Positions 40,385 to 58,431 of a DNA stretch of 64,000 nucleotides are shown here, in pieces; position 1 is the first letter of the stretch, and each line of letters starts with the position of its first letter. This DNA is from Halarcobacter sp. (lineage in GTDB: Bacteria; Campylobacterota; Campylobacteria; Campylobacterales; Arcobacteraceae), in assembly GCA_048571215.1 (NCBI GenBank), contig CP182352.1:1664001-1728000 (forward strand), read 5' to 3'. The notes below the pieces were generated by a model. The model was not told where the DNA came from. It worked only from the letters and a program-made list of their open reading frames with translations, and ran no database searches. A program made the position numbers and the translations under genes.

Positions 40385-40554
40385 AATTTACCTCATACTA
40401 TTACGATTGACTTCAGTGACTCGATGTATTCACTGCTAGGAGACTGTGAAAGAAGTCAATTTTAATATATATAATATTCTACATAAAAACACCTAAAAAT
40501 AATCATTCTAAAAATACTAAAATATTATAATATATTATATTTTAAAGGTGATTT

Positions 40555-40581
40555 ATGGGTAAAAAACTACTTGATAAATGA
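40555..40581 (+). pseudogene. IntI stub MGKKLLDK*
   Basis: AAGGTG RBS; followed by repeat copy A. Confidence 0.55.
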
Positions 40582-40590
40582 TTGACATCA

Positions 40591-40690
40591 GAAACAATAA
40601 ATAAACACTCGGCTTCTCAAATGTGGGAAAGTGGGAAATTGACCTTTGCATTTTTTGATACCATTTTATTTGAATTGGTGTAATACTCAA
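40591..40690 (+). repeat. Structured repeat copy A (partial)
   Basis: aataaacactcggcttctcaaatgtgggaaagtggg...ggtgtaatactcaa. Confidence 0.85.
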
Positions 40691-40726
40691 TTTATACAAA
40701 GAAAGTTTGCAGCTAGTGTATTTAGT

Positions 40727-40887
40727 CCAGACTTTGTTGAAGCCGAAAGTTTTCTAATTATTTTCGGAGAAGACCGAGGACCGTTCAACTGGATAAAAGG
40801 TACTGAATGTACCTTTTAGGAAGGCGTTCCGCAGGTCAGGAAATAATTATAAAACTGTAGGGAACTTTAGCTTCAACAACCGTCTGG
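40727..40887. repeat. Palindromic element of about 160 bp
   Basis: ccagac-tttgttgaagc ... gcttcaacaa-ccgtctgg ends; inner aaaaggtac-tgaat-gtacctttt hairpin. Confidence 0.65.
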
Positions 40888-41107
40888 TTGCTTTTTGTCT
40901 TACTTTTTACAACTAAAAAGTGAGAAAGCGAAGAACTTGTTCTTTAAGACAATTGCATACAATAAAAACTATTATCAAAATATTTGAGTATAAATAAACT
41001 TTTACTATACGTCTTAATTTCTATCGACTTTCTTTTGTGAAAAAGAAAGTAGCAAAGAAGTTGCCACCTTAAAAAATGATAAAATATAAAATATTTAAAT
41101 CTAATAT

Positions 41108-42091
41108 TTATGATATACTTTTAAATTTATTAGGGTCATATATATTATTATTTTTATATAATGAGTGAGCAATTACAATCATTTTTCGCATTACAGCAAT
41201 TTGTGCTACAGTAGTATGTTTGCCATTCTCTTTTAATCTATTATAAAATATTTTTAATTCTTCATTGTATTGTATCGCTGTCATTACTGCCATAAATAAT
41301 GTACCCCTACATAATTTTGAACCAGATTTTGATATTTTTGTTTTTCCTTTTATTGATGAACCAGAATCTCTACTAACTGGATCTAATCCAGCTAATGAAA
41401 CAATTTGCTTTTGATTTGTATCAGGATATTGTATAAAATGGTGTAATAATATAATTGAAGATAATTCTCCTATGCCTTTTATAGTTTGGATATTTAAAAA
41501 TGCATTATGTAAATTTTTGTCTTTTGCAATAACTTTTTTTATCTCAATAAGAATATCTTTTTCTTTTTTTTCAAATGATTTTATATCTTTTCTTAATGAT
41601 TTAATTATAATAGATGAAGCATCTTTTGAAACTAAAGCTTCCAAATGATTTTTATTTTGAGTTTTAATTTTTGATATAAATTTATAATATGTAATAAGCT
41701 CTTTTAATTCCTCGGCATAAGGATTAATAATGGGTATTTTAATCTGATTTTTTCTTGCAGTAACTATCATCTGAGATAACATTCTAGCATCTAAAAGGTC
41801 AGTTTTATTTCTTTGACCAATTGCTTTAGCAAAGTTAGCACTTTTCTTTGGATTAACAATAAAACAGTGTATACTTTTTTCAGAACAAAACTTTTTAATT
41901 AAAAAGGAATAATTAGCTGTAGGTTCAAAAACAAATACAAGTTTATCTATATCTTTTTTATAAAGTTTTTTTAACTTAGAATAAAAACCTTTAAGTGATT
42001 TCAAATTATTTGATATTTGAATATCTAAATCATTGATAGGGATATAAATATTAATTGTTGACTTACTTATATCTAATCCGATAGAATACAT
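41108..42091 (-). CDS. IS110-family recombinase/transposase
   Basis: IGLDISK, FEPTANY, KTDLLDA, IKGIG, AGLDP..RDSGSS, AVMRKM. Confidence 0.93.
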   Translation of the reverse strand: MYSIGLDISKSTINIYIPINDLDIQISNNLKSLKGFYSKLKKLYKKDIDKLVFVFEPTANYSFLIKKFCSEKSIHCFIVNPKKSANFAKAIGQRNKTDLLDARMLSQMIVTARKNQIKIPIINPYAEELKELITYYKFISKIKTQNKNHLEALVSKDASSIIIKSLRKDIKSFEKKEKDILIEIKKVIAKDKNLHNAFLNIQTIKGIGELSSIILLHHFIQYPDTNQKQIVSLAGLDPVSRDSGSSIKGKTKISKSGSKLCRGTLFMAVMTAIQYNEELKIFYNRLKENGKHTTVAQIAVMRKMIVIAHSLYKNNNIYDPNKFKSIS

Positions 42092-42109
42092 ATCTAGAAC
42101 CTTTGTATT

Positions 42110-42325
42110 AATATAAAGAGTTCGTTAGGGTAGGAATAAAATTCCTACCTGATATTTCGTCATACAAACTTTAGACTCGTAAATACGAACTAGTTATAAA
42201 ACTGTTCTTGTTGCCACTCAAATTTGAAGTATAACTATTGAACTTCTTTACAAGCTAATTAAAATTATTTTTAATTGCTTCAACCACCCACACAATATAT
42301 CATCTTCTATTGAACTCTATGAAAA
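42110..42325 (-). ncRNA. Putative IS110 bridge RNA
   Basis: Two hairpin-centred loops with GGGTGGTT/GTAAAGAA (target-like) and GTGGCAAC/TACGA (donor-like) segments; TATAAT at the element end; boundaries approximate. Confidence 0.65.
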
Positions 42326-42664
42326 TATACTATCATATTTCCAATATTTTATTATACGAACCATCCCACAGGTTTCGAAGGTGAAACTACTCTCGCTTAT
42401 TATTCATCCCTTTTGAGTGCCTAAAAACTTGCTAAAACGTTCTCCCAGAACGTTTCTTTAGGCTTCAAACAGTTTAGTCACTTGTTTTCAAAAGAGATAA
42501 ATAAACACTCGGCTTCTCAAATGTGGGAAAGTGGGATAAGGACCTTTGCATTTTTTATACCATTTTATTTAAGCTGGTGTGATACTCAATAATTATTATA
42601 AAATGTGGAGATTCAACTTCTGGGGTGTTACTTTAGAAGTATCTATTTTTAATAGAAAGATGTA

Positions 42665-44231: not shown

Positions 44232-47207
44232 TTACTCAACTACTCCAGTACCAAAAGATGTTCCATCTGTCATGATTTTAGCTTGATTTTCTCCATATCC
44301 CATACTCATGTCAAGAAGTATTTTATTATCTAACAAAATCTTATTTATATACAGTTCATCATAAGCATATTTTAAAGTTGGAAATTCTTTTAATAATGTT
44401 GTCCCTTCTGTAGTACCATCACTTATCCATAATTGAATGTAAGTCTCATAGTTGCTAGAAGACGATAAATTTGTGATTTCTGCGACTATTAAAATTTTAC
44501 CATTCAACTCAAAAATACTTTTAATACCTGCCACATTAGTATCATCAATATTAGGTATTTTTTTAACTTCTGTTATAGTTGTTGGATTTATTTTCCATAA
44601 TGCCCCATTTATAACCTTATAGCTTATATTATTAACCGTTAAACTATTACCAAAATATGAATCACTTGAGCCAACTTTCAAATCTTCTACCATAACTGTA
44701 CCAGCTTCAGTTCCATCACTTTTCCATAATTCTTTACCATGTACACCATCATCTGCATCAAAAAACACAGTACCATTAACATCAATTAAGTTTCTTGGAT
44801 AACTCCAATTTGTTCCAACTCTAATATCTTTAATTATACTTGTACCTGCTTCTGTTCCATCACTCTTCCATAATTCTCCACCGTTAGCGCTATCATTATT
44901 ATAAAAAAATAAAATTCCATCACTCATAATTAAATCTTGAGGGGAAGAACCATAATCAGTAAGAGGTATTGTGCCTACTTCAGTACCATCACTTTTCCAT
45001 AATCTAGTTTTGTTATTTCCTTCGTTACCTGCAAAATAAAAAATATTATTATCAGCAACAGTAAAGTTATATAAATACGCAAAGTTATCTTTTATTTTTA
45101 CTGTTCCATTTTCAGTACCATCACTTTTCCAAAGGGAATCTATGCCATTATTGTCTTCAATTGTAAAATATAGAGTTCCATTAACATTGGTTAAATTAGT
45201 AGGGTTTGATGAATTTGCACCAATAACTATATCTTTTACTATCACTGTACCAGATTCAGTTCCATCACTTTTCCATAACTCTTTACCATGCTCTACATCT
45301 AAAGCTGTAAAATAGTATGTATTATTAATCTTAGTTAAACTGCTAACTGATGAACTTGCTATTTTTGTATTTATGTCTTTTAGTATCTTTGTGCCATTTT
45401 CTGTTCCATCACTTATCCATAGTTCAGCTCCATGATTATTATCACTCATAGTATAAATAAATTTTTCTCCCAATATTACACCAGATTCCGAAGTCCAAGA
45501 ATTCGATTCTGAAAGTATATTCGTTTTTAAAGGAGTGAGCGTTTCACTTGTAGTATTAAAGATTGATAATGTTTGATTACCCGTATTCTTATCCATTTGA
45601 GCTATATATAAAATATTATCTATTGGTGATTTTGAGATTGATGTATAATCTGATAAATCTAATAATTTTGTTGTATTATTAACTGTGCCATCAGTTTTCC
45701 ATATACTATCATTTGGCCATACATTATTATGTAAATATACAGTTTGATTATCTTCACTAAAGAAATCAAATGTATTAGATACTTCACCTGATGTTCTTGT
45801 TATTAATTTGATAGTTCCTACTTCAGTACCATCACTAATCCAAACATTTCCTCTTTGATAAAAATATACATTTTCTCCAAAAATTGAAAAAGCACCTGGA
45901 TCATAATCACTATTATATGTATAAAGAGTATTAATCTTTATAGTACCAATGTCTGTACCATCACTTACCCATAAATTTGTTTCTGTGTTGATAGCCGTCA
46001 TAAATATCTTAGTTGCTGTTGCAGCAAGTGTATTGATATATTCTCCTAAGTCTTTTACTAAAATAGTACCACTTCCTGTACCATCACTTTCCCATAATTC
46101 TTTGCCTATAGAAAAATAAAGTTTATTATTAAAGGTTGTGATTTTAGAAAAATAACTTGGTAAATCTTTCACCAAAACAGTACCATTTTCAGTTCCGTCA
46201 CTTTTCCATAAATCACCAGAATTATTATCATCATACAACCTAAAATAAGCAACTCCATTTAGATTTGTAATAGCTTCAATAGAAACATTGGAAGAACCAG
46301 TTCTTGTAAACTCCTTAATGAATGTTGTTCCATTTTCTGTTCCATCACTTTTCCAAATACTACCATATCCGTTTGAAGTATTGCTATCATATCTATTTTG
46401 AGTAAAATAGAGTACTCCCCCTATATCAGTTAATCTTCCACAACTACCTGTTTTTAGTAATATAGTTCCATTTTCTGTTCCATCTGTCCTCCATAGTCCA
46501 CTTCCATTATTATCTGAAGCCGTAAAATAAGTGTAACTACCAACTGTTATGAAATTTGATGGAGATGATGATTGTGTTGCTGTATTTATTTTTTTAACAA
46601 CTGTTGTATCTATTCCGTTAGTACTTATTAATTCTCCATCTCTTGAGACAGTAATATTTTTTTGTGATGATAAGTCAAAAGTATTTTTCAAATGTTCTAT
46701 AGCTTTATATTTGAAAACTGGTTCTTTATTTGAAGCTTTTATTATTGCATCTAGTTTTGTTGTATTTATATCTTTTAAATTTAATGATTCAACAAACATT
46801 CCATGAATAGAACTGTCAATGTTTATTTCATTCGTAATATTTCCATCATCATCTAATGATTGTAATAATATAGCTAATTTTGCTGTGTATTCATCATCAA
46901 AGTTTGTTCTATCTACATTTGCTATATCCTGTAAGTAAATATTTTTATCATTTGTAAAGCCATCTATGCTGCCAATTATTAAATTACCTATCTTAAACGT
47001 AATAGTTGCACCACTTTCACATTCAAACTTTCCATTTGCTTGTGTAGTTCCATTGATGTCTCCACACTCATAATTTATACCAACTACGGGTGAATCAATT
47101 AAATACCCTGTTACTAATTGTGAAGATGAAGTGCTACTTCCACCACCGCAACCATTTAAAAATACTATGAAAAGTATTAAAACTATTATTGAAATTTTGT
47201 TTTTCAT
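44232..47207 (-). CDS. ELWxxDGT-repeat lipoprotein (cassette gene)
   Basis: Lipobox LNGC, many (E)LWKSDGTxxGT repeats. Confidence 0.85.
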   Translation of the reverse strand: MKNKISIIVLILFIVFLNGCGGGSSTSSSQLVTGYLIDSPVVGINYECGDINGTTQANGKFECESGATITFKIGNLIIGSIDGFTNDKNIYLQDIANVDRTNFDDEYTAKLAILLQSLDDDGNITNEINIDSSIHGMFVESLNLKDINTTKLDAIIKASNKEPVFKYKAIEHLKNTFDLSSQKNITVSRDGELISTNGIDTTVVKKINTATQSSSPSNFITVGSYTYFTASDNNGSGLWRTDGTENGTILLKTGSCGRLTDIGGVLYFTQNRYDSNTSNGYGSIWKSDGTENGTTFIKEFTRTGSSNVSIEAITNLNGVAYFRLYDDNNSGDLWKSDGTENGTVLVKDLPSYFSKITTFNNKLYFSIGKELWESDGTGSGTILVKDLGEYINTLAATATKIFMTAINTETNLWVSDGTDIGTIKINTLYTYNSDYDPGAFSIFGENVYFYQRGNVWISDGTEVGTIKLITRTSGEVSNTFDFFSEDNQTVYLHNNVWPNDSIWKTDGTVNNTTKLLDLSDYTSISKSPIDNILYIAQMDKNTGNQTLSIFNTTSETLTPLKTNILSESNSWTSESGVILGEKFIYTMSDNNHGAELWISDGTENGTKILKDINTKIASSSVSSLTKINNTYYFTALDVEHGKELWKSDGTESGTVIVKDIVIGANSSNPTNLTNVNGTLYFTIEDNNGIDSLWKSDGTENGTVKIKDNFAYLYNFTVADNNIFYFAGNEGNNKTRLWKSDGTEVGTIPLTDYGSSPQDLIMSDGILFFYNNDSANGGELWKSDGTEAGTSIIKDIRVGTNWSYPRNLIDVNGTVFFDADDGVHGKELWKSDGTEAGTVMVEDLKVGSSDSYFGNSLTVNNISYKVINGALWKINPTTITEVKKIPNIDDTNVAGIKSIFELNGKILIVAEITNLSSSSNYETYIQLWISDGTTEGTTLLKEFPTLKYAYDELYINKILLDNKILLDMSMGYGENQAKIMTDGTSFGTGVVE

Positions 47208-47260: not shown

Positions 47261-47640
47261 TATATAAAATCACCTAATAGCACTACATTTTTTATGATAA
47301 GATACTAAATTGCTATAAAGCCCTTAAATAAGCTATTTTTAATATTATTTAAATAATATATTACAATATATAATATTTTTTAAACCTAAATTGTATATTT
47401 GATATAATTTTTAATATTAGACTATTAACGTATATCTGTAATAGCTTATCAAAATGTTATGCTATTGATTAAAAATCGTAATAGTTTAACAAAATGCTAA
47501 ATATATCAGGAGTAAAAAATGGATAAGAAACTACTAGATATTATGAGTGATAAATTCTAAATATTCACTTTTTTATTGAAAAAAGTAAAACAAAAAGCAA
47601 CCCGCGGGTTTCGAAGGCAGAAGCTTCCCTCGCTTATTAT
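47225..47640 (+). repeat. Near-identical duplicate of 56188-56603 (attI, promoter region, IntI stub, repeat start)
   Basis: Constant offset of 8963 bp, few substitutions. Confidence 0.9.
47519..47560 (+). pseudogene. IntI stub MDKKLLDIMSDKF*
   Basis: AGGAG RBS, divergent from attI, fused to repeat C. Confidence 0.65.
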
Positions 47641-47893
47641 TTATCCCTTTTGAATGCCTAAAAACTTGCTCTTGTGCTTGCACTCTCTGTGAGAAAACGT
47701 GAATTAGTCACGTTTCTTTACGCTTCAAACAGTTTAGTCACTTGTTTTCAAAAGAGACAAATAAACACTCAGCTTCTCAAATGCGGGAAGGTGGGATAAT
47801 GACCTTTGCATTTTTTGATACCATTTTATTTTAGTTGGTGTGATACTCAATAATAATTATAAAAGTGGAGATTCATCCTCTAGGGTGTTATTT
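47555..47893 (+). repeat. Structured repeat copy C
   Basis: Shared conserved blocks, ends gggtgttattt. Confidence 0.9.
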
Positions 47894-47894
47894 T

Positions 47895-47922
47895 AATATT
47901 TCTCTCCAATGATTTGTTAGAC
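47895..47922 (-). other. Truncated attC (left arm only)
   Basis: GTCTAAC-aaatcattggagagaaatat then the repeat end; R'' complements GTTAGAC at 48404. Confidence 0.75.
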
Positions 47923-50460: not shown

Positions 50461-50705
50461 GTACTTAAATCCACTACTTTATTATATATTTAGTAGAAAA
50501 GCTTATTTCATGCATCTTTATAGAGGAATATTACAAAATACAATATTTTTTCTATATATTTTTATTATAAGTTATAATTTTTATATATATTTAATGTCGA
50601 TATTTGGAACTTTTATATATATAATGTATGTTAAAAGTGAAAATTTAACTTTAAATAACATTTTGATTATTTAACAAAATGATAAATATATTATGTGTAT
50701 TTGGA

Positions 50706-51069
50706 TAATACTATTATCAAAATATTTGAGTGTAAACTAACTTTTGCTGTACGTCTTAACTTATTCCGACTTTCTTTTATAAAAAAGAAAGTAGCAAAGA
50801 AATTATCCCGCAGGTTTCGAAAGTGAAACTTCCCTCGCTTATTATTTCACTTTTCTGTTTTTCAAAACTCGCTAAAACGTAAGTTAGTTACGTTTCTTTA
50901 CGCTCTAACAGTTGAAAAACTTTTCCGAAAAGCAAAATAAACACTCGGCTTCTCAAATGCGGGAAAGTGGGATAAGGACCTTTGCATTTTTTTATACCAT
51001 TTTATTTTAATTGGTGTGATACTCAACAATTATTATAAAAGTGGAGATTCATTCTCTGGGGTGTTATTT
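50706..51069 (+). repeat. Structured repeat copy D
   Basis: Conserved blocks; uninterrupted IS110 target site near 50790-50815. Confidence 0.9.
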
Positions 51070-51276
51070 TAAAGCAACTATAAACAAATGTATAGATGGA
51101 ACATGAAACTATTATCGATGATTATACTACTAAAATGAATACAAAAAAAGCAAGAGATATAGTTAGAAAAAGAGCTTCAATTGTAGAGCATCCATTTTGC
51201 AAGTGTGAATTCCATTTCACTTCATGGTACAATAAAAAGAACTTTAGGTTGGGATCATTTTTTAGTAAGAGGAAAA
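51070..51276 (+). pseudogene. IS1182-like transposase C-terminal fragment with a 28-bp insert
   Basis: RKRASIVEHPF [51198-51225] GTIKRTLGWDHFLVRGK. Confidence 0.7.
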
Positions 51277-51481
51277 CAAAAGGCAAGCATACAACAGCTG
51301 TTCAAATTGCACTTATGCGAAAAATGATAATTATTGCACATTCTTTATATAAAAATGACATACAATATGACAAAGATTTTTATAAAAAAAGTTGTGGATT
51401 TCAAGAGTAGAAAACTACTCTTGATTTAAGAAATTGATTTAATTAAAATTTATAAATTTCAAGTTTTTTTAAGGTGGCGAC
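51277..51481 (+). mobile_element. IS110 3' remnant with element end
   Basis: GKHTTAVQIALMRKMIIIAHSLYKN matches the C-terminus of 41108..42091; ends tttttaaggtggcgac. Confidence 0.8.
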
Positions 51482-53508: not shown

Positions 53509-53853
53509 ATATTCACTTTTTGCCTGCAAGCAGGATTACATATTGAAAAAAGTAAAATAAAAATAACCCGCGGGTTTCGAAGATGAAACTTCCCTCGTTT
53601 ATTATTTATTGTTTCTGTTTCGTCTTGTGCTTGCACTCTCTTTGAGAAAACTCACATAAAAATATGCTCCTAGCATATTTGTTCTGTTCAAACAGTTACA
53701 AAACTTCTCCGAAACAATAAATAAACACATGGCTTCTCAAATGCGGAAAAGTGGGATAATGACCTTTACTTTTTTAAGTATCATTTTATTTTAGTTGGTG
53801 TAATACTCAACAATTATTATAAAAGTGGAGATTCATTCTCTGGGGTGTTATTT
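53503..53853 (+). repeat. Structured repeat copy E
   Basis: Conserved blocks, two mini-inserts. Confidence 0.9.
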
Positions 53854-53886
53854 TTTTCTATATATTTTTATAGTTTAGGAGATATT

Positions 53887-53928
53887 ATGGGTAAAAAACT
53901 ACTTGATATAATAAAGGATAAATTTTAA
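53887..53928 (+). pseudogene. IntI stub MGKKLLDIIKDKF*
   Basis: AGGAG RBS, fused to repeat F. Confidence 0.6.
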
Positions 53929-54153
53929 ATATTCACTTTTTTGCCTGCAAGCAGGATTAGATATTGAAAAAAGTAAAATAAAACCATCCCACAGGTTTCG
54001 AAGATAAAACTTCCCTCGCTTATTATTTATTGCTTCTCAAATGCGGGAAAGTGGGATAATGACCTTTGCATTTTTTGATACCATTTTATTTTAGTTGGTG
54101 TGATACTCAATAATTATTATAAAAGTGGAGATTCATCCTCTGGAGTGTTATTT
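53923..54153 (+). repeat. Structured repeat copy F (inner arm deleted)
   Basis: tatttattg joined directly to cttctcaaatgcggg. Confidence 0.9.
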
Positions 54154-54173
54154 AGTTTTAACAAAATATAATA

Positions 54174-56223: not shown

Positions 56224-56481
56224 TATATAAATTCACCTAATAGCACTACATTTTTTATGATAAGATACTAAATTGCTATAAAGCCCTTAAATAAGCTATT
56301 TTTAGTATTATTTAAATAATATATTACAATATGTAATATTTTATAAACCTAAATTGTATATTTGATATAATTTTTAATGTTAGACTATTAACGTATATCC
56401 GTAATAGCTTATCAAAATGTTATGCTATTGATTAAAAATCGTAATAGTTTAACAAAATGCTAAATATATCAGGAGTAAAAA

Positions 56482-56523
56482 ATGGATAAGAAACTACTAG
56501 ATATTATGAGTGATAAATTCTAA
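56482..56523 (+). pseudogene. IntI stub MDKKLLDIMSDKF*
   Basis: Identical to the 47519 stub. Confidence 0.65.
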
Positions 56524-56812
56524 ATATTCACTTTTTTATTGAAAAAAGTAAAACAAAAAGCAACCCGCGGGTTTCGAAGGCAGAAGCTCCCCTCGCTTAT
56601 TATTTATTGTTTCTGTTTTGTAAAACTCACATAAAAATATGCTCCTAGCATATTTGTTCTGTTCAAACAGTTACAAAACTTTTCCGAAACAATAAATAAG
56701 CACTCAGCTTCTCAAATGCGGGAAGGTGGGAAACTGACCTTTGCATTTTTTAGTACCATTTTATTTTAGTGGGTGTGATACTCAACAATTATTATAAAAG
56801 TGGAGACTCATT
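56518..56812 (+). repeat. Structured repeat copy H (terminus clipped)
   Basis: Conserved blocks up to gtggagactcattc. Confidence 0.9.
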
Positions 56813-57161
56813 CTTTATAGTTTATTTTTTTATAATAACCTGCATTCCTCAAATCATTTATTCTAAATATTAGTACATAATATAAAGATGGCATTACTGA
56901 TACTATATAAACTGCAAAAATTAAAAATAGATAAAAATTTGAGCTATTTATTAAAGTTCTATAAGTATTTATTAAATAAAAGAGAGGATAAATACTAATT
57001 AAACTATAAATAAGATATATAATAAAACCTAAAAAAGTAACAAAATTTTTTTTAAATTTTTTTATTTTTATTAAAAAGTATACATATATTTTAGATATTA
57101 TTAAAAGTAAAACACTTGATATAATTATAAATATAATTAACTCTAATATATTCTCTATCAT
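56808..57161 (-). CDS. Hypothetical membrane protein; stop supplied by repeat H
   Basis: Three TM segments, AGGTG RBS. Confidence 0.55.
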   Translation of the reverse strand: MIENILELIIFIIISSVLLLIISKIYVYFLIKIKKFKKNFVTFLGFIIYLIYSLISIYPLFYLINTYRTLINSSNFYLFLIFAVYIVSVMPSLYYVLIFRINDLRNAGYYKKINYKE

Positions 57162-57247: not shown

Positions 57248-57325
57248 CAAGGCGAAGTGAAAATTTTAAGAGGAGCGTACATGCAAGTACATGAGTATTA
57301 AATTTTTTACTTCCAACAACGCGTC
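57248..57325. repeat. Short palindromic element with ggagcgtac..gtac core
   Basis: caaggcgaagtgaaaattttaa-gaggagcgtac-atgcaa-gtacatga..ttaaattttttacttc; related to 58741. Confidence 0.55.
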
Positions 57326-57787
57326 TGGTTGCTTTTTGCCTTACTTTTTAGAACATGTAATCCTGCTTGCAGGCAAAAAAGTGAGAAAACGGAAAGCCTC
57401 GCTCTACAAGACAACTGCATACAGTTAATACTATTATCAAAATATTTGAGTATAAATAAACTTTTGAAGTACGTCTTAACTCTTCTCGACTTTTTTTATG
57501 AAAAAAAAGTAGCAAAAAATCACCCGCGGAGTTTTGGAGGTGAAACTACCCTCGCTTATTATTTATTGTTTCTGTTTTGTAAAACTCACATAAAAATATG
57601 CTCCCAGCATATTTGTTCTGTTCAAACAGTTACAAAACTTCTCCAAAACAATAAATAAACACTCGGCTTCTCAAATGCGGGAAGGTGGGATTATGACCTT
57701 TGCATTTTTTTATACCATTTTATTTTAATTGGTATAATACTCAACAATTATTATAAAAGTGGAGATTCATCCTCTAGGGTATTATTT
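57314..57787 (+). repeat. Structured repeat copy I (long form)
   Basis: Colinear with the reassembled copy B. Confidence 0.9.
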
Positions 57788-58431
57788 TAATATTTATAAA
57801 TATATTTAGGTAAAAAAATGAAAATCAAATAATTAAGTATAAAAAGTATACATGCAGGCAACATTGAAATAATAAAAAAAAGCCCACTAAAACAGCCACT
57901 TCCACAAGTGTTTCCTTCATACCAAAGATATAATGCACCTAAGGTGGGGAGAATAGATAAAATAAATAAAAATTTTCCAAAAAATAAATATTTATTTTTC
58001 TTTTTTAAAATATTATATATTTTATAAGAAGGTATTAGTGGTATTAAATGTGCTAATACCAATACAAAAGTAAAAAAAAACATAAACTCGGATTTAATTA
58101 TAAATAAAAAAGGAAAACTCAATAATATTGCAATTAAAAAATAGTATAAAACGAATTTATAATTAATTTTTTCTTTCTTAATACTAATATAATTATTCAC
58201 TTTATATATTTTATTATCTAAAATTAATGTTTTTTCAGTTAATAAAATATAATCATTAATTGTATCATAATAAAAACTTTCATCATTTTCTACGATAAAG
58301 ACAATTTTATTATATAAATTAGTTTCATCAACAGCTAAATATGGGTAGTTTTTCTTAATCTCATCTTCAACTGATAATGGACTTTTTTTATTATTTAATA
58401 ATATAAGTTTTATTGTATCTCTTAAATTCAT
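57787..58431 (-). CDS. Hypothetical membrane protein
   Basis: Four C-terminal TM segments; stop abuts the repeat terminus. Confidence 0.55.
   Translation of the reverse strand: MNLRDTIKLILLNNKKSPLSVEDEIKKNYPYLAVDETNLYNKIVFIVENDESFYYDTINDYILLTEKTLILDNKIYKVNNYISIKKEKINYKFVLYYFLIAILLSFPFLFIIKSEFMFFFTFVLVLAHLIPLIPSYKIYNILKKKNKYLFFGKFLFILSILPTLGALYLWYEGNTCGSGCFSGLFFIISMLPACILFILNYLIFIFLPKYIYKY

What the first reader, a model, noticed from the sequence alone, without database searches (positions are those of the whole stretch)
41057..42365. IS110 whose bridge RNA appears programmed against the structured repeat
Seen (minus strand): the reconstructed target is gtgggatgg-TTC-tttgc and the donor junction is ggtggcaac-TTC-gtataat. 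In the non-coding end one hairpin is flanked by GGGTGGTT (42282-42289, like the left target) and GTAAAGAA (42244-42251, near-complement of TTCTTTGC). The next hairpin is flanked by GTGGCAAC (42210-42217, exact left donor) and TACGA (42177-42181, complement of the right donor). Known: IS110 bridge RNAs have separate target- and donor-binding loops arranged like this. Inference: a natural bridge recombinase targeting a multicopy repeat, which could also rearrange modules between repeat copies.
Basis: partly seen in the sequence, partly recalled or inferred. Interest (0 to 1): 0.7.

Follow-up and report, generated by a model that had tools for sequence, protein, structure and literature searches.

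The report
RNA-guided jumping gene in hairpin repeat
This is an intact IS110 jumping gene whose own guide RNA matches one spot in a folded DNA repeat of its host; the mechanism is known, but related elements aim at several different spots of this same repeat.

Summary
Confirmed, with one correction. The element is a 1300-bp IS110 (41059-42358, minus strand) of the IS621 type. G000 holds four identical copies, all at the same base of a ~600-bp hairpin repeat. The four guides are real: they beat shuffles (0 of 2000), lie in loops of a covarying two-loop fold, and track each element's own flanks across 24 distinct target loops (0 of 10,000 permutations).

Empty sites give target GGGATGG-TT-TCTTTGC and donor GTGGCAA-CT-CGTAT, so a CT donor enters a TT target.

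Bridge-RNA IS110s that target repeats are known (IS621, ISPpu10), and this scan has filed about 50 similar findings on other DNA. Two extras: relatives in 13 genomes aim 10 different right-target guides at about 7 positions of this repeat, which I did not find described; and one repeat copy is a chimera joined within 1 nt of the cut sites of both resident IS110s. That is a single, imperfect hint of module rearrangement. No circle, transcript or activity was shown.

The parts
41059..42358 (-). Complete IS110 element, 1300 bp ('subfamily A'); 4 identical copies in G000
   Evidence: (0 differences between copies)
41108..42091 (-). IS110 recombinase, 327 aa, DEDD (D7, E56, D98, D101) plus Tnp domain with S243
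   Evidence: Pfam PF01548 + PF02371; NF033542 over cut-off; aligned to IS621 and ISCro4, E about 6e-27; residues
42096..42358 (-). Left non-coding end encoding the inferred bridge RNA (5' hairpin, target loop, donor loop, two 3' hairpins)
   Evidence: consensus fold, 32 of 44 pairs with two-sided changes; transcript not shown
42282..42290 (-). Left target guide UGGGUGGUU (target GGGATGG-TT: 7 matches, 1 wobble, 1 mismatch; 5, 3 and 1 for the GGGATAA allele)
42243..42251 (-). Right target guide GUAAAGAAG (pairs TT-TCTTTGC with two wobbles; its AG end fits the donor CT core after exchange)
42241..42242 (-). Target-loop handshake guide UU, complementary to donor positions 6-7 (AA)
   Evidence: role from PMC11208158
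42209..42217 (-). Left donor guide GUGGCAACA (8 of 9 with GTGGCAA-CT)
42176..42181 (-). Right donor guide UACGAG (6 of 6 with CT-CGTA)
42174..42175 (-). Donor-loop handshake guide UC (pairs target positions 6-7 GG with one wobble)
42359..42367 (-). Left half of target with TT core (core at 42359-42360)
41052..41058 (-). Right half of target, TCTTTGC
41059..41067 (-). Left donor with CT core at the element's right end
42351..42358 (-). Right donor CGTAT overlapping a TATAAT -10 box (42351-42356)
   Evidence: sequence
42359..42640 (-). Left part of the interrupted ~600-bp hairpin repeat
40480..41058 (-). Right part of the interrupted repeat, running into the next unit; folds as DNA with z = -7.3
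42097..42123 (-). Conserved hairpin just before the start codon, covering the likely ribosome-binding site (role inferred)
   Evidence: helix 7

Best explanation
An intact, probably recently active IS110-group bridge recombinase element that works like IS621. Inferred cycle: the ends join to give the donor GTGGCAA-CT-CGTAT; the left non-coding end yields a two-loop bridge RNA; its donor loop reads the donor and its target loop reads GGGATGG/GGGATAA-TT-TCTTTGC, a 16-bp spot of the host's ~600-bp hairpin repeat, using G-T wobbles to accept both alleles. The DEDD/Ser recombinase cuts 3' of the core, so the left junction keeps the target's TT and the right junction keeps the donor's CT. Only the second core base is shared. 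The repeat is an abundant non-coding landing pad, onto which this clade has been re-aimed several times by guide changes. Shown here: boundaries, copy number, site identity, guide-flank match and covariation, covarying stems, catalytic residues. Inferred from IS621 work: the transcript, the circle, the chemistry and present activity.
For: 4 of 4 identical copies at repeat position ~279. The paralog B in the same genome (63% aa, 3 copies) keeps the scaffold and left donor guide but has other target guides that match its own site at ~513, and a right donor guide changed in step with its donor. Across 24 distinct target loops, the left guide fits its own flank at 6.21 of 7 against 4.73 +/- 0.13; the right guide (16 with a right end) at 5.09 against 2.52 +/- 0.30; 0 of 10,000 permutations each. 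The target-loop handshake pairs donor 6-7 fully in 20 of 24 (UU/AA 13, UC/GA 7). Guide columns vary (left target guide 0.39 conserved) while stems (0.84) and donor guides (0.86-0.94) hold. Left-junction first core base: C 33, T 8, A 1, G 1 of 43. Cleavage 3' of the core is reported for IS621 (PMC11208158 and PMC13626964, passages).
Against: No circle junction among the joints listed and no evidence of a transcript (contigs only, 4 runs). Single-sequence folds pair part of the guides (z only -2.09). The left guide has a mismatch at position 1 and up to three wobbles, and the best-matching empty sites (382952 in the repeat, 924009 in a gene) are unoccupied. IS621 strongly prefers pairing to a CT core (PMC11208160, passage), so a TT target may be suboptimal. 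No -35 box is evident at the computed junction. Relatives are not independent, so the permutation figures overstate; some anchors were fixed by the parsing (see full report).
Confidence: 0.9

Rival explanations
1. Guide pairing is necessary but not sufficient: a hairpin of the repeat next to the target acts as a second specificity gate, as reported for ISPpu10.
For: 114 empty genome sites can pair with the A guides at 15 positions (Watson-Crick or wobble); only 20 are in the repeat, yet 4 of 4 insertions are (about 0.002 if all 118 sites were equal). The A site lies at the base of a 10-bp hairpin. Precedent: 10.64898/2026.03.19.712850 (abstract).
Against: 78 of the 94 outside sites are in coding DNA, where insertions would be selected against; among non-coding sites the chance of 4 of 4 is about 0.13. 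The ~7 targeted positions have no common hairpin geometry that I could define. An RNA-run contig has the element's right end followed by non-repeat sequence (one contig, depth 4.7).
Confidence: 0.25
2. Besides transposing, the co-resident A and B elements rearrange the repeat: a B copy and an A copy in one array are excised together through their near-identical donor ends (or after homologous recombination between them), joining B-left to A-right.
For: The repeat copy at G000 388064 joins model position 512 to 280; the B core ends at 513 and the A core at 279. It is 1 of 4 distinct internal junctions that I read. A and B share the left donor and its guide. Donor-only excision and composite IS110 units are reported (10.64898/2026.08.31.748434 section 7; 10.64898/2026.03.19.712850 section 5).
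Against: The junction is one base short of the exact product and has a 2-nt microhomology. It was found in 1 of 184 family genomes, and the 8 metagenome matches were unrelated DNA. The other 3 junctions are not at A or B sites. Alleles across the A core are never mixed in 24 empty sites.
Confidence: 0.3
3. Site choice is made by the protein or by homologous spread with the repeat (copies duplicated together with their flanks), and the guide-like matches are incidental.
For: The DNA is AT-rich and wobble scoring is lenient; repeats can spread by gene conversion.
Against: The four copies have different flank alleles yet identical elements. Guides change in step with flanks across paralogs and genomes. 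The shuffle test gives 0 of 2000.
Confidence: 0.03

Closest known systems
IS621 of Escherichia coli and its bridge RNA (PMC11208160, PMC11208158; PDB 8wt6)
   Same: Two-domain DEDD/Ser recombinase (E 5.6e-27); upstream non-coding end; guide order LTG-RTG-LDG-RDG; CT donor core; handshake guides; no duplication; IS110 elements are reported to target REP repeats.
   Different: TT target core at all 4 copies; right target guide naturally pairs 7 bases beyond the core (IS621's is described as four bases); target is a ~600-bp hairpin repeat, not a short REP; no -35 box evident at the junction.
ISCro4 / IS622 (PDB 9t56; 10.1101/2025.05.14.653916; that these two names denote one element is recalled, not from a call)
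   Same: Same fold family (E 6.6e-27); 14-base recognition with handshake guides around a dinucleotide core.
   Different: Distant in sequence; different donor and target; described with CT cores on both substrates.
ISPpu10 of Pseudomonas putida (10.64898/2026.03.19.712850) and ISPpu9 (PMC12288879, listing only)
   Same: All insertions fall in copies of one structured intergenic repeat; composite units and large rearrangements are reported.
   Different: A stem-loop gate was shown for ISPpu10 and is untested here; here several paralogs divide one long repeat into about 7 target positions.
ISEc21 / ISMch6 seekRNA elements (PMC11187229)
   Same: IS110 type with upstream non-coding region; natural re-programming among relatives.
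   Different: Their target lies in IS3 transposase genes; one natural redirection was described, against 29 right-guide types seen here.

Membership tests
IS110 group (IS621-type bridge recombinase element) | DEDD RuvC-like domain followed by Tnp domain with catalytic serine | tested here: met
   PF01548 + PF02371; NF033542 159.9 bits, cut-off 140; D7, E56, D98, D101, S243 align with IS621
IS110 group (IS621-type bridge recombinase element) | Long non-coding end upstream of the gene | tested here: met
   267 bp upstream, 49 bp downstream
IS110 group (IS621-type bridge recombinase element) | Two-loop RNA with guides in the order LTG, RTG, LDG, RDG | tested here: met
   consensus fold and covariation; shuffle test; single-sequence folds only partly agree
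IS110 group (IS621-type bridge recombinase element) | Guides covary with target and donor DNA | tested here: met
   (24 distinct target loops; kin not independent)
IS110 group (IS621-type bridge recombinase element) | Site-specific insertion without target duplication | tested here: met
   4 of 4 copies at one position; empty site = flanks joined with one shared T
IS110 group (IS621-type bridge recombinase element) | CT core shared by target and donor | tested here: inconclusive
   donor core CT, target core TT in 4 of 4 copies; 48 of 61 junction records in the clade have a CT target core. A variant of the core, not a different mechanism
IS110 group (IS621-type bridge recombinase element) | Promoter reconstituted across the circle junction | tested here: inconclusive
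   TATAAT 2 bp inside the left end; the hexamer 17 bp upstream in the computed junction is not TTGACA-like. That Campylobacterota promoters lack a -35 consensus is recalled, not tested
IS110 group (IS621-type bridge recombinase element) | Circular intermediate | tested here: inconclusive
   no such joint listed in contigs of 4 runs; contigs drop rare forms
IS110 group (IS621-type bridge recombinase element) | RNA is expressed, binds the protein and is required for recombination | not testable with these tools
   needs small RNA-seq, pull-down and a recombination assay
IS1111 group (seekRNA downstream, subterminal inverted repeats) | Non-coding region downstream of the gene | tested here: not met
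   it is upstream (definition from PMC11187229)
IS1111 group (seekRNA downstream, subterminal inverted repeats) | Subterminal inverted repeats | tested here: inconclusive
   best match 11 of 12 is nearly all A/T, at unequal offsets 3 and 17, the best of 400 comparisons; not evident in paralog B
Integron attC site (as identity of the target repeat) | Short R''-R' site in a cassette array beside intI | tested here: not met
   G000 has an integron integrase with its own different cassette sites; no repeat interval lies there; the unit is ~600 bp
REP / BIME repeats mobilised by RAYT (as identity of the target repeat) | Short palindromes flanking a cognate RAYT gene | tested here: inconclusive
   one RAYT-like gene in G000 (78.3 bits, cut-off 80) with no repeat interval beside it; the unit has two related halves in inverted orientation, BIME-like only in layout

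The most novel reading that the evidence does not exclude
An IS110 clade of this bacterial family has specialised on one ~600-bp hairpin repeat that I did not find described, re-aiming its bridge RNA to about 7 positions. Co-resident paralogs with near-identical donor ends then act together as a natural editing set that deletes and rejoins repeat modules, and possibly the small variable genes lying between repeats; the B-left/A-right chimera at G000 388064 would be one such scar.
Probability: 0.2. Interest if true: 0.7.

Novelty: new member of a known kind. Interest (0 to 1): 0.4.

Why it matters
The mechanism is known, so the element alone is a clean example and a candidate tool. Three things add value. 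(1) It is a natural test of core rules: a CT donor repeatedly entering a TT target, with the left guide recoded and the right guide left as for CT. (2) The clade is a ready-made series of natural reprogramming events, including handshake guides, that can calibrate guide-design rules such as wobble tolerance and right-guide length. (3) It points to a strongly folded, family-restricted repeat of unknown function that attracts many IS110s. If the chimera is an IS110 product, these elements also remodel that repeat and its gene islands.

Tried and rejected
Repeat as a known RNA family: Rfam on 36000-60000 gave only a chance mir-3 match at E 0.46, outside the repeat. Repeat as attC: rejected. Circle junction or expression: not seen in contigs of 4 runs; the one RNA run has low depth and cannot show transcription; runs X1 and X2 may be the source sample and are not independent. 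Second example of the chimeric junction: 0 of 183 other family genomes; 8 metagenome matches, all unrelated DNA. Tree of 26 recombinases: backbone unresolved (10 of 22 inner branches open), so the order and number of retargeting events could not be fixed. First parses of the homologs misplaced some junctions or dropped 19 of 49 rows; one search replaced them. A naive 14-position score ranked the B element's true sites poorly because its right guide pairs only about 5 bases. Earlier findings by sequence: none for the repeat or the protein; a longer word search was empty. Literature: 0 papers hold IS110 + Arcobacter + insertion sequence; two searches listed nothing on this repeat (20 of 72 and 15 of 15,186 shown). 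No structure or complex prediction was run.

Full report
What is there. The minus strand carries a 327-aa ORF (41108-42091) with PF01548 and PF02371, over the cut-off of NCBIfam NF033542. Its closest solved relatives are IS621 and ISCro4 (E about 6e-27); D7, E56, D98, D101 and S243 align with their catalytic residues. The genome G000 (3.61 Mb, 28.5% GC) holds four copies identical over 1300 bp, three copies of a paralog B at 63% protein identity, and one fragment. The closest named relatives are labelled Arcobacter, Halarcobacter and Arcobacteraceae, so the host family is inferred to be Arcobacteraceae.

Boundaries. A pattern for the empty site found 21 copies in G000; none reads that way, and 14 read GATGG or GATAA followed by TT-TCTTTGC. 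Public contigs of empty copies join 41058 to 42359, a 1300-base skip with one ambiguous base. These come from other repeat copies and are not evidence of excision. The element is therefore 41059-42358, the target GGGATGG-TT-TCTTTGC and the donor GTGGCAA-CT-CGTAT. All four left junctions keep TT and all four right junctions keep CT. This fits IS621, where top strands are cut 3' of the core and any mismatches lie 3' of it (PMC11208158 and PMC13626964, passages).

The guides. They are LTG 42282-42290, RTG 42243-42251, LDG 42209-42217 and RDG 42176-42181. Their ordered match to the junctions scores 29.5 of 34, against 23.7 +/- 1.0 in 2000 shuffles, none as high (a wobble counts half). G residues in the left guide face G or A in the two occupied alleles, which wobble pairing would allow (inference). 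An alignment of 22 non-coding ends (the window's plus 21 of the 29 distinct relatives' ends listed; near-duplicates and long-insert forms left out) gives two internal loops, each with an inner hairpin. Of 44 pairs, 32 have two-sided changes, against 12.3 +/- 2.1 in shuffles and 2-10 in slid controls. Both target guides are unpaired in it. A 3-bp helix between the donor guides is predicted but has no two-sided change. Against this, the window sequence alone folds only modestly (z -2.09), and in long folds the RDG is mostly paired (0.28-0.33 unpaired). Folded alone, the target domain leaves LTG and RTG 0.89 unpaired.

Covariation. Paralog B shares the scaffold and LDG, but its target guides match its own flanks and its RDG follows its own donor. 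Of 49 homolog rows, 43 were parsed and 6 dropped (no anchor, or end missing), giving 24 distinct target loops. The left guide region fits its own flank at 6.21 of 7, against 4.73 +/- 0.13 when permuted. The right guide, in the 16 with a right end, scores 5.09 against 2.52 +/- 0.30. None of 10,000 permutations reached either. The two bases after the RTG pair fully with donor positions 6-7 in 20 of 24, switching UU/AA to UC/GA, as handshake guides should. Caveats: kin are not independent; the parser fixed the T of the left core, the C of the right core and the first three bases of the right donor, so those agreements are partly built in; one left guide (L008) was mis-windowed, which lowers the score.

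The target repeat. It covers 45 intervals and 22 kb of G000, ten of them in this window, mostly between small genes. Six full units are 592-602 bp, and each has two related halves in inverted orientation. A 439-nt part folds as DNA at z -7.3. Rfam has no match. It is not the integron's attC. Matches were found in 9 of 24 other genomes of the family; in other families of the order only short weak matches appeared (12 of 276 genomes). Its function is unknown. My best guess is a non-autonomous mobile repeat spread by local duplication and conversion (inference, low confidence).

One repeat, many guides. The recombinase has close relatives in 27 of 183 other family genomes. With 20 more loci fetched, 61 junction records were parsed and 35 map inside the repeat, one element being counted twice. 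They come from 13 genomes and use 10 of 29 right-guide types. They fall at about 7 position classes once the two-half symmetry is allowed: +279 (A), +513/-209 (B), -556/+165, -175, +422, +458/-271 and -434. Every mapped record of the A (4 of 4), B (11 of 11) and +458 (8 of 8) types is in the repeat. The other 26 records have unrelated or too divergent flanks. The tree backbone is unresolved, so the number of retargeting events is not fixed.

Is pairing enough? 114 empty sites in G000 can pair with the A guides at 15 positions; 20 are in the repeat, 78 in coding and 16 in other non-coding DNA by a crude ORF mask. Four of four in the repeat has a chance of about 0.002 overall, but about 0.13 among non-coding sites. 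A structural gate like that of ISPpu10 (abstract and section 5 read) is thus possible but not required. The two best-scoring empty sites are unoccupied.

Module rearrangement. Alleles left and right of the A core are never mixed in 24 empty sites, and target-target recombination is reported to be weak. Yet the copy at G000 388064 joins repeat position 512 to 280, where the B core ends at 513 and the A core at 279. It is one of four distinct internal junctions that I read. Under uniform breakpoints the coincidence would be about 4 in 10,000 (my estimate, post hoc; breakpoints probably cluster at hairpin bases). It is one base short of an exact product, has a 2-nt microhomology and was not found elsewhere. 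Joint excision of a B and an A copy by donor-only recognition (10.64898/2026.08.31.748434, abstract and section 7) could give it. I put an IS110 origin of this junction at about 0.3-0.4.

What is known. IS110 elements inserting into repeats through a bridge RNA are described (PMC11208160, passages), as are natural reprogramming (PMC11187229, passages) and expansion of IS110 loci (10.64898/2026.08.14.744561, passages). A recent non-coding survey does not mention Arcobacter or Campylobacter in its main text (10.64898/2026.10.21.760802, passages). 10.1101/2025.05.14.653916 was seen as passages; PMC1525189 and PMC12288879 only as search listings. No paper in the library holds IS110, Arcobacter and insertion sequence together. 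Supplements and ISfinder were not seen and may list this element. This scan has 50 findings with the same key words in at least 39 genomes, none on this sequence.

Verdict. It works like IS621 and is a member of the IS110 group by every feature that could be decided here, with a TT target core as a variant. New member of a known kind; interest 0.4, carried by the natural reprogramming series and the repeat rather than by the element.

Noticed in passing
G000:C1 ~388064 (L080:1337-1598): Repeat copy that joins the left half of the B target to the right half of the A target, one base short of an exact bridge product.
   Followed up: partly
G000:C1 478273(-), 810173(+), 1718891(+) (window ~54891), 2553832(+), 2557908(+): Five orphan IS110 right ends (AAGGTGGCAACT) with no recombinase gene, followed by GACC, GACT or CTCC-type sequence like the right target of another subfamily seen in L007, L012 and L027: probably scars or mini-elements.
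   Followed up: partly
window 40480-41058, 42359-42640, 47430-47895, 50619-51071, 53546-54159, 56393-56814, 57306-57789: The ~600-bp hairpin repeat itself: swappable inner hairpin loops, ~25-bp inserts at varying places, co-oriented copies between small variable genes; no Rfam match.
   Followed up: partly
run X5 contig over window 42196-42363: Near-identical element with a change at 42246 inside the right target guide that would fit the TTTTTGC allele of the repeat, and a left flank that diverges after 5 bases: possible single-base retargeting (one contig).
   Followed up: no
run X6 contig at window 41052: The element's right end is followed by TCTTTGC and then non-repeat sequence: possible insertion outside the repeat in another strain (depth 4.7).
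   Followed up: no
L031:1500-3945 (G000:C1 ~895-897 kb): Chromosomal integron integrase over the TIGR02249 cut-off beside guaA-like sequence (name recalled), followed by cassettes with attC-like sites.
   Followed up: partly
L034:1468-1992 (G000:C1 ~2560 kb): RAYT-like tyrosine transposase just under the cut-off, preceded by a GGGACA direct repeat; its frame seems to end early.
   Followed up: partly
window 51240-51386: Fragment of a further IS110 recombinase C-terminus (57% identity, residues 276-324) beside a repeat copy.
   Followed up: no
L003 / L029 (G002:C6 322691-325352): Two different IS110s inserted about 450 bp apart in one repeat array, at different positions: the kind of composite that could yield a chimeric junction.
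   Followed up: partly
window 44232-47207: 991-aa secreted-looking protein with many 'LWKSDGT' repeats in the same gene island.
   Followed up: no
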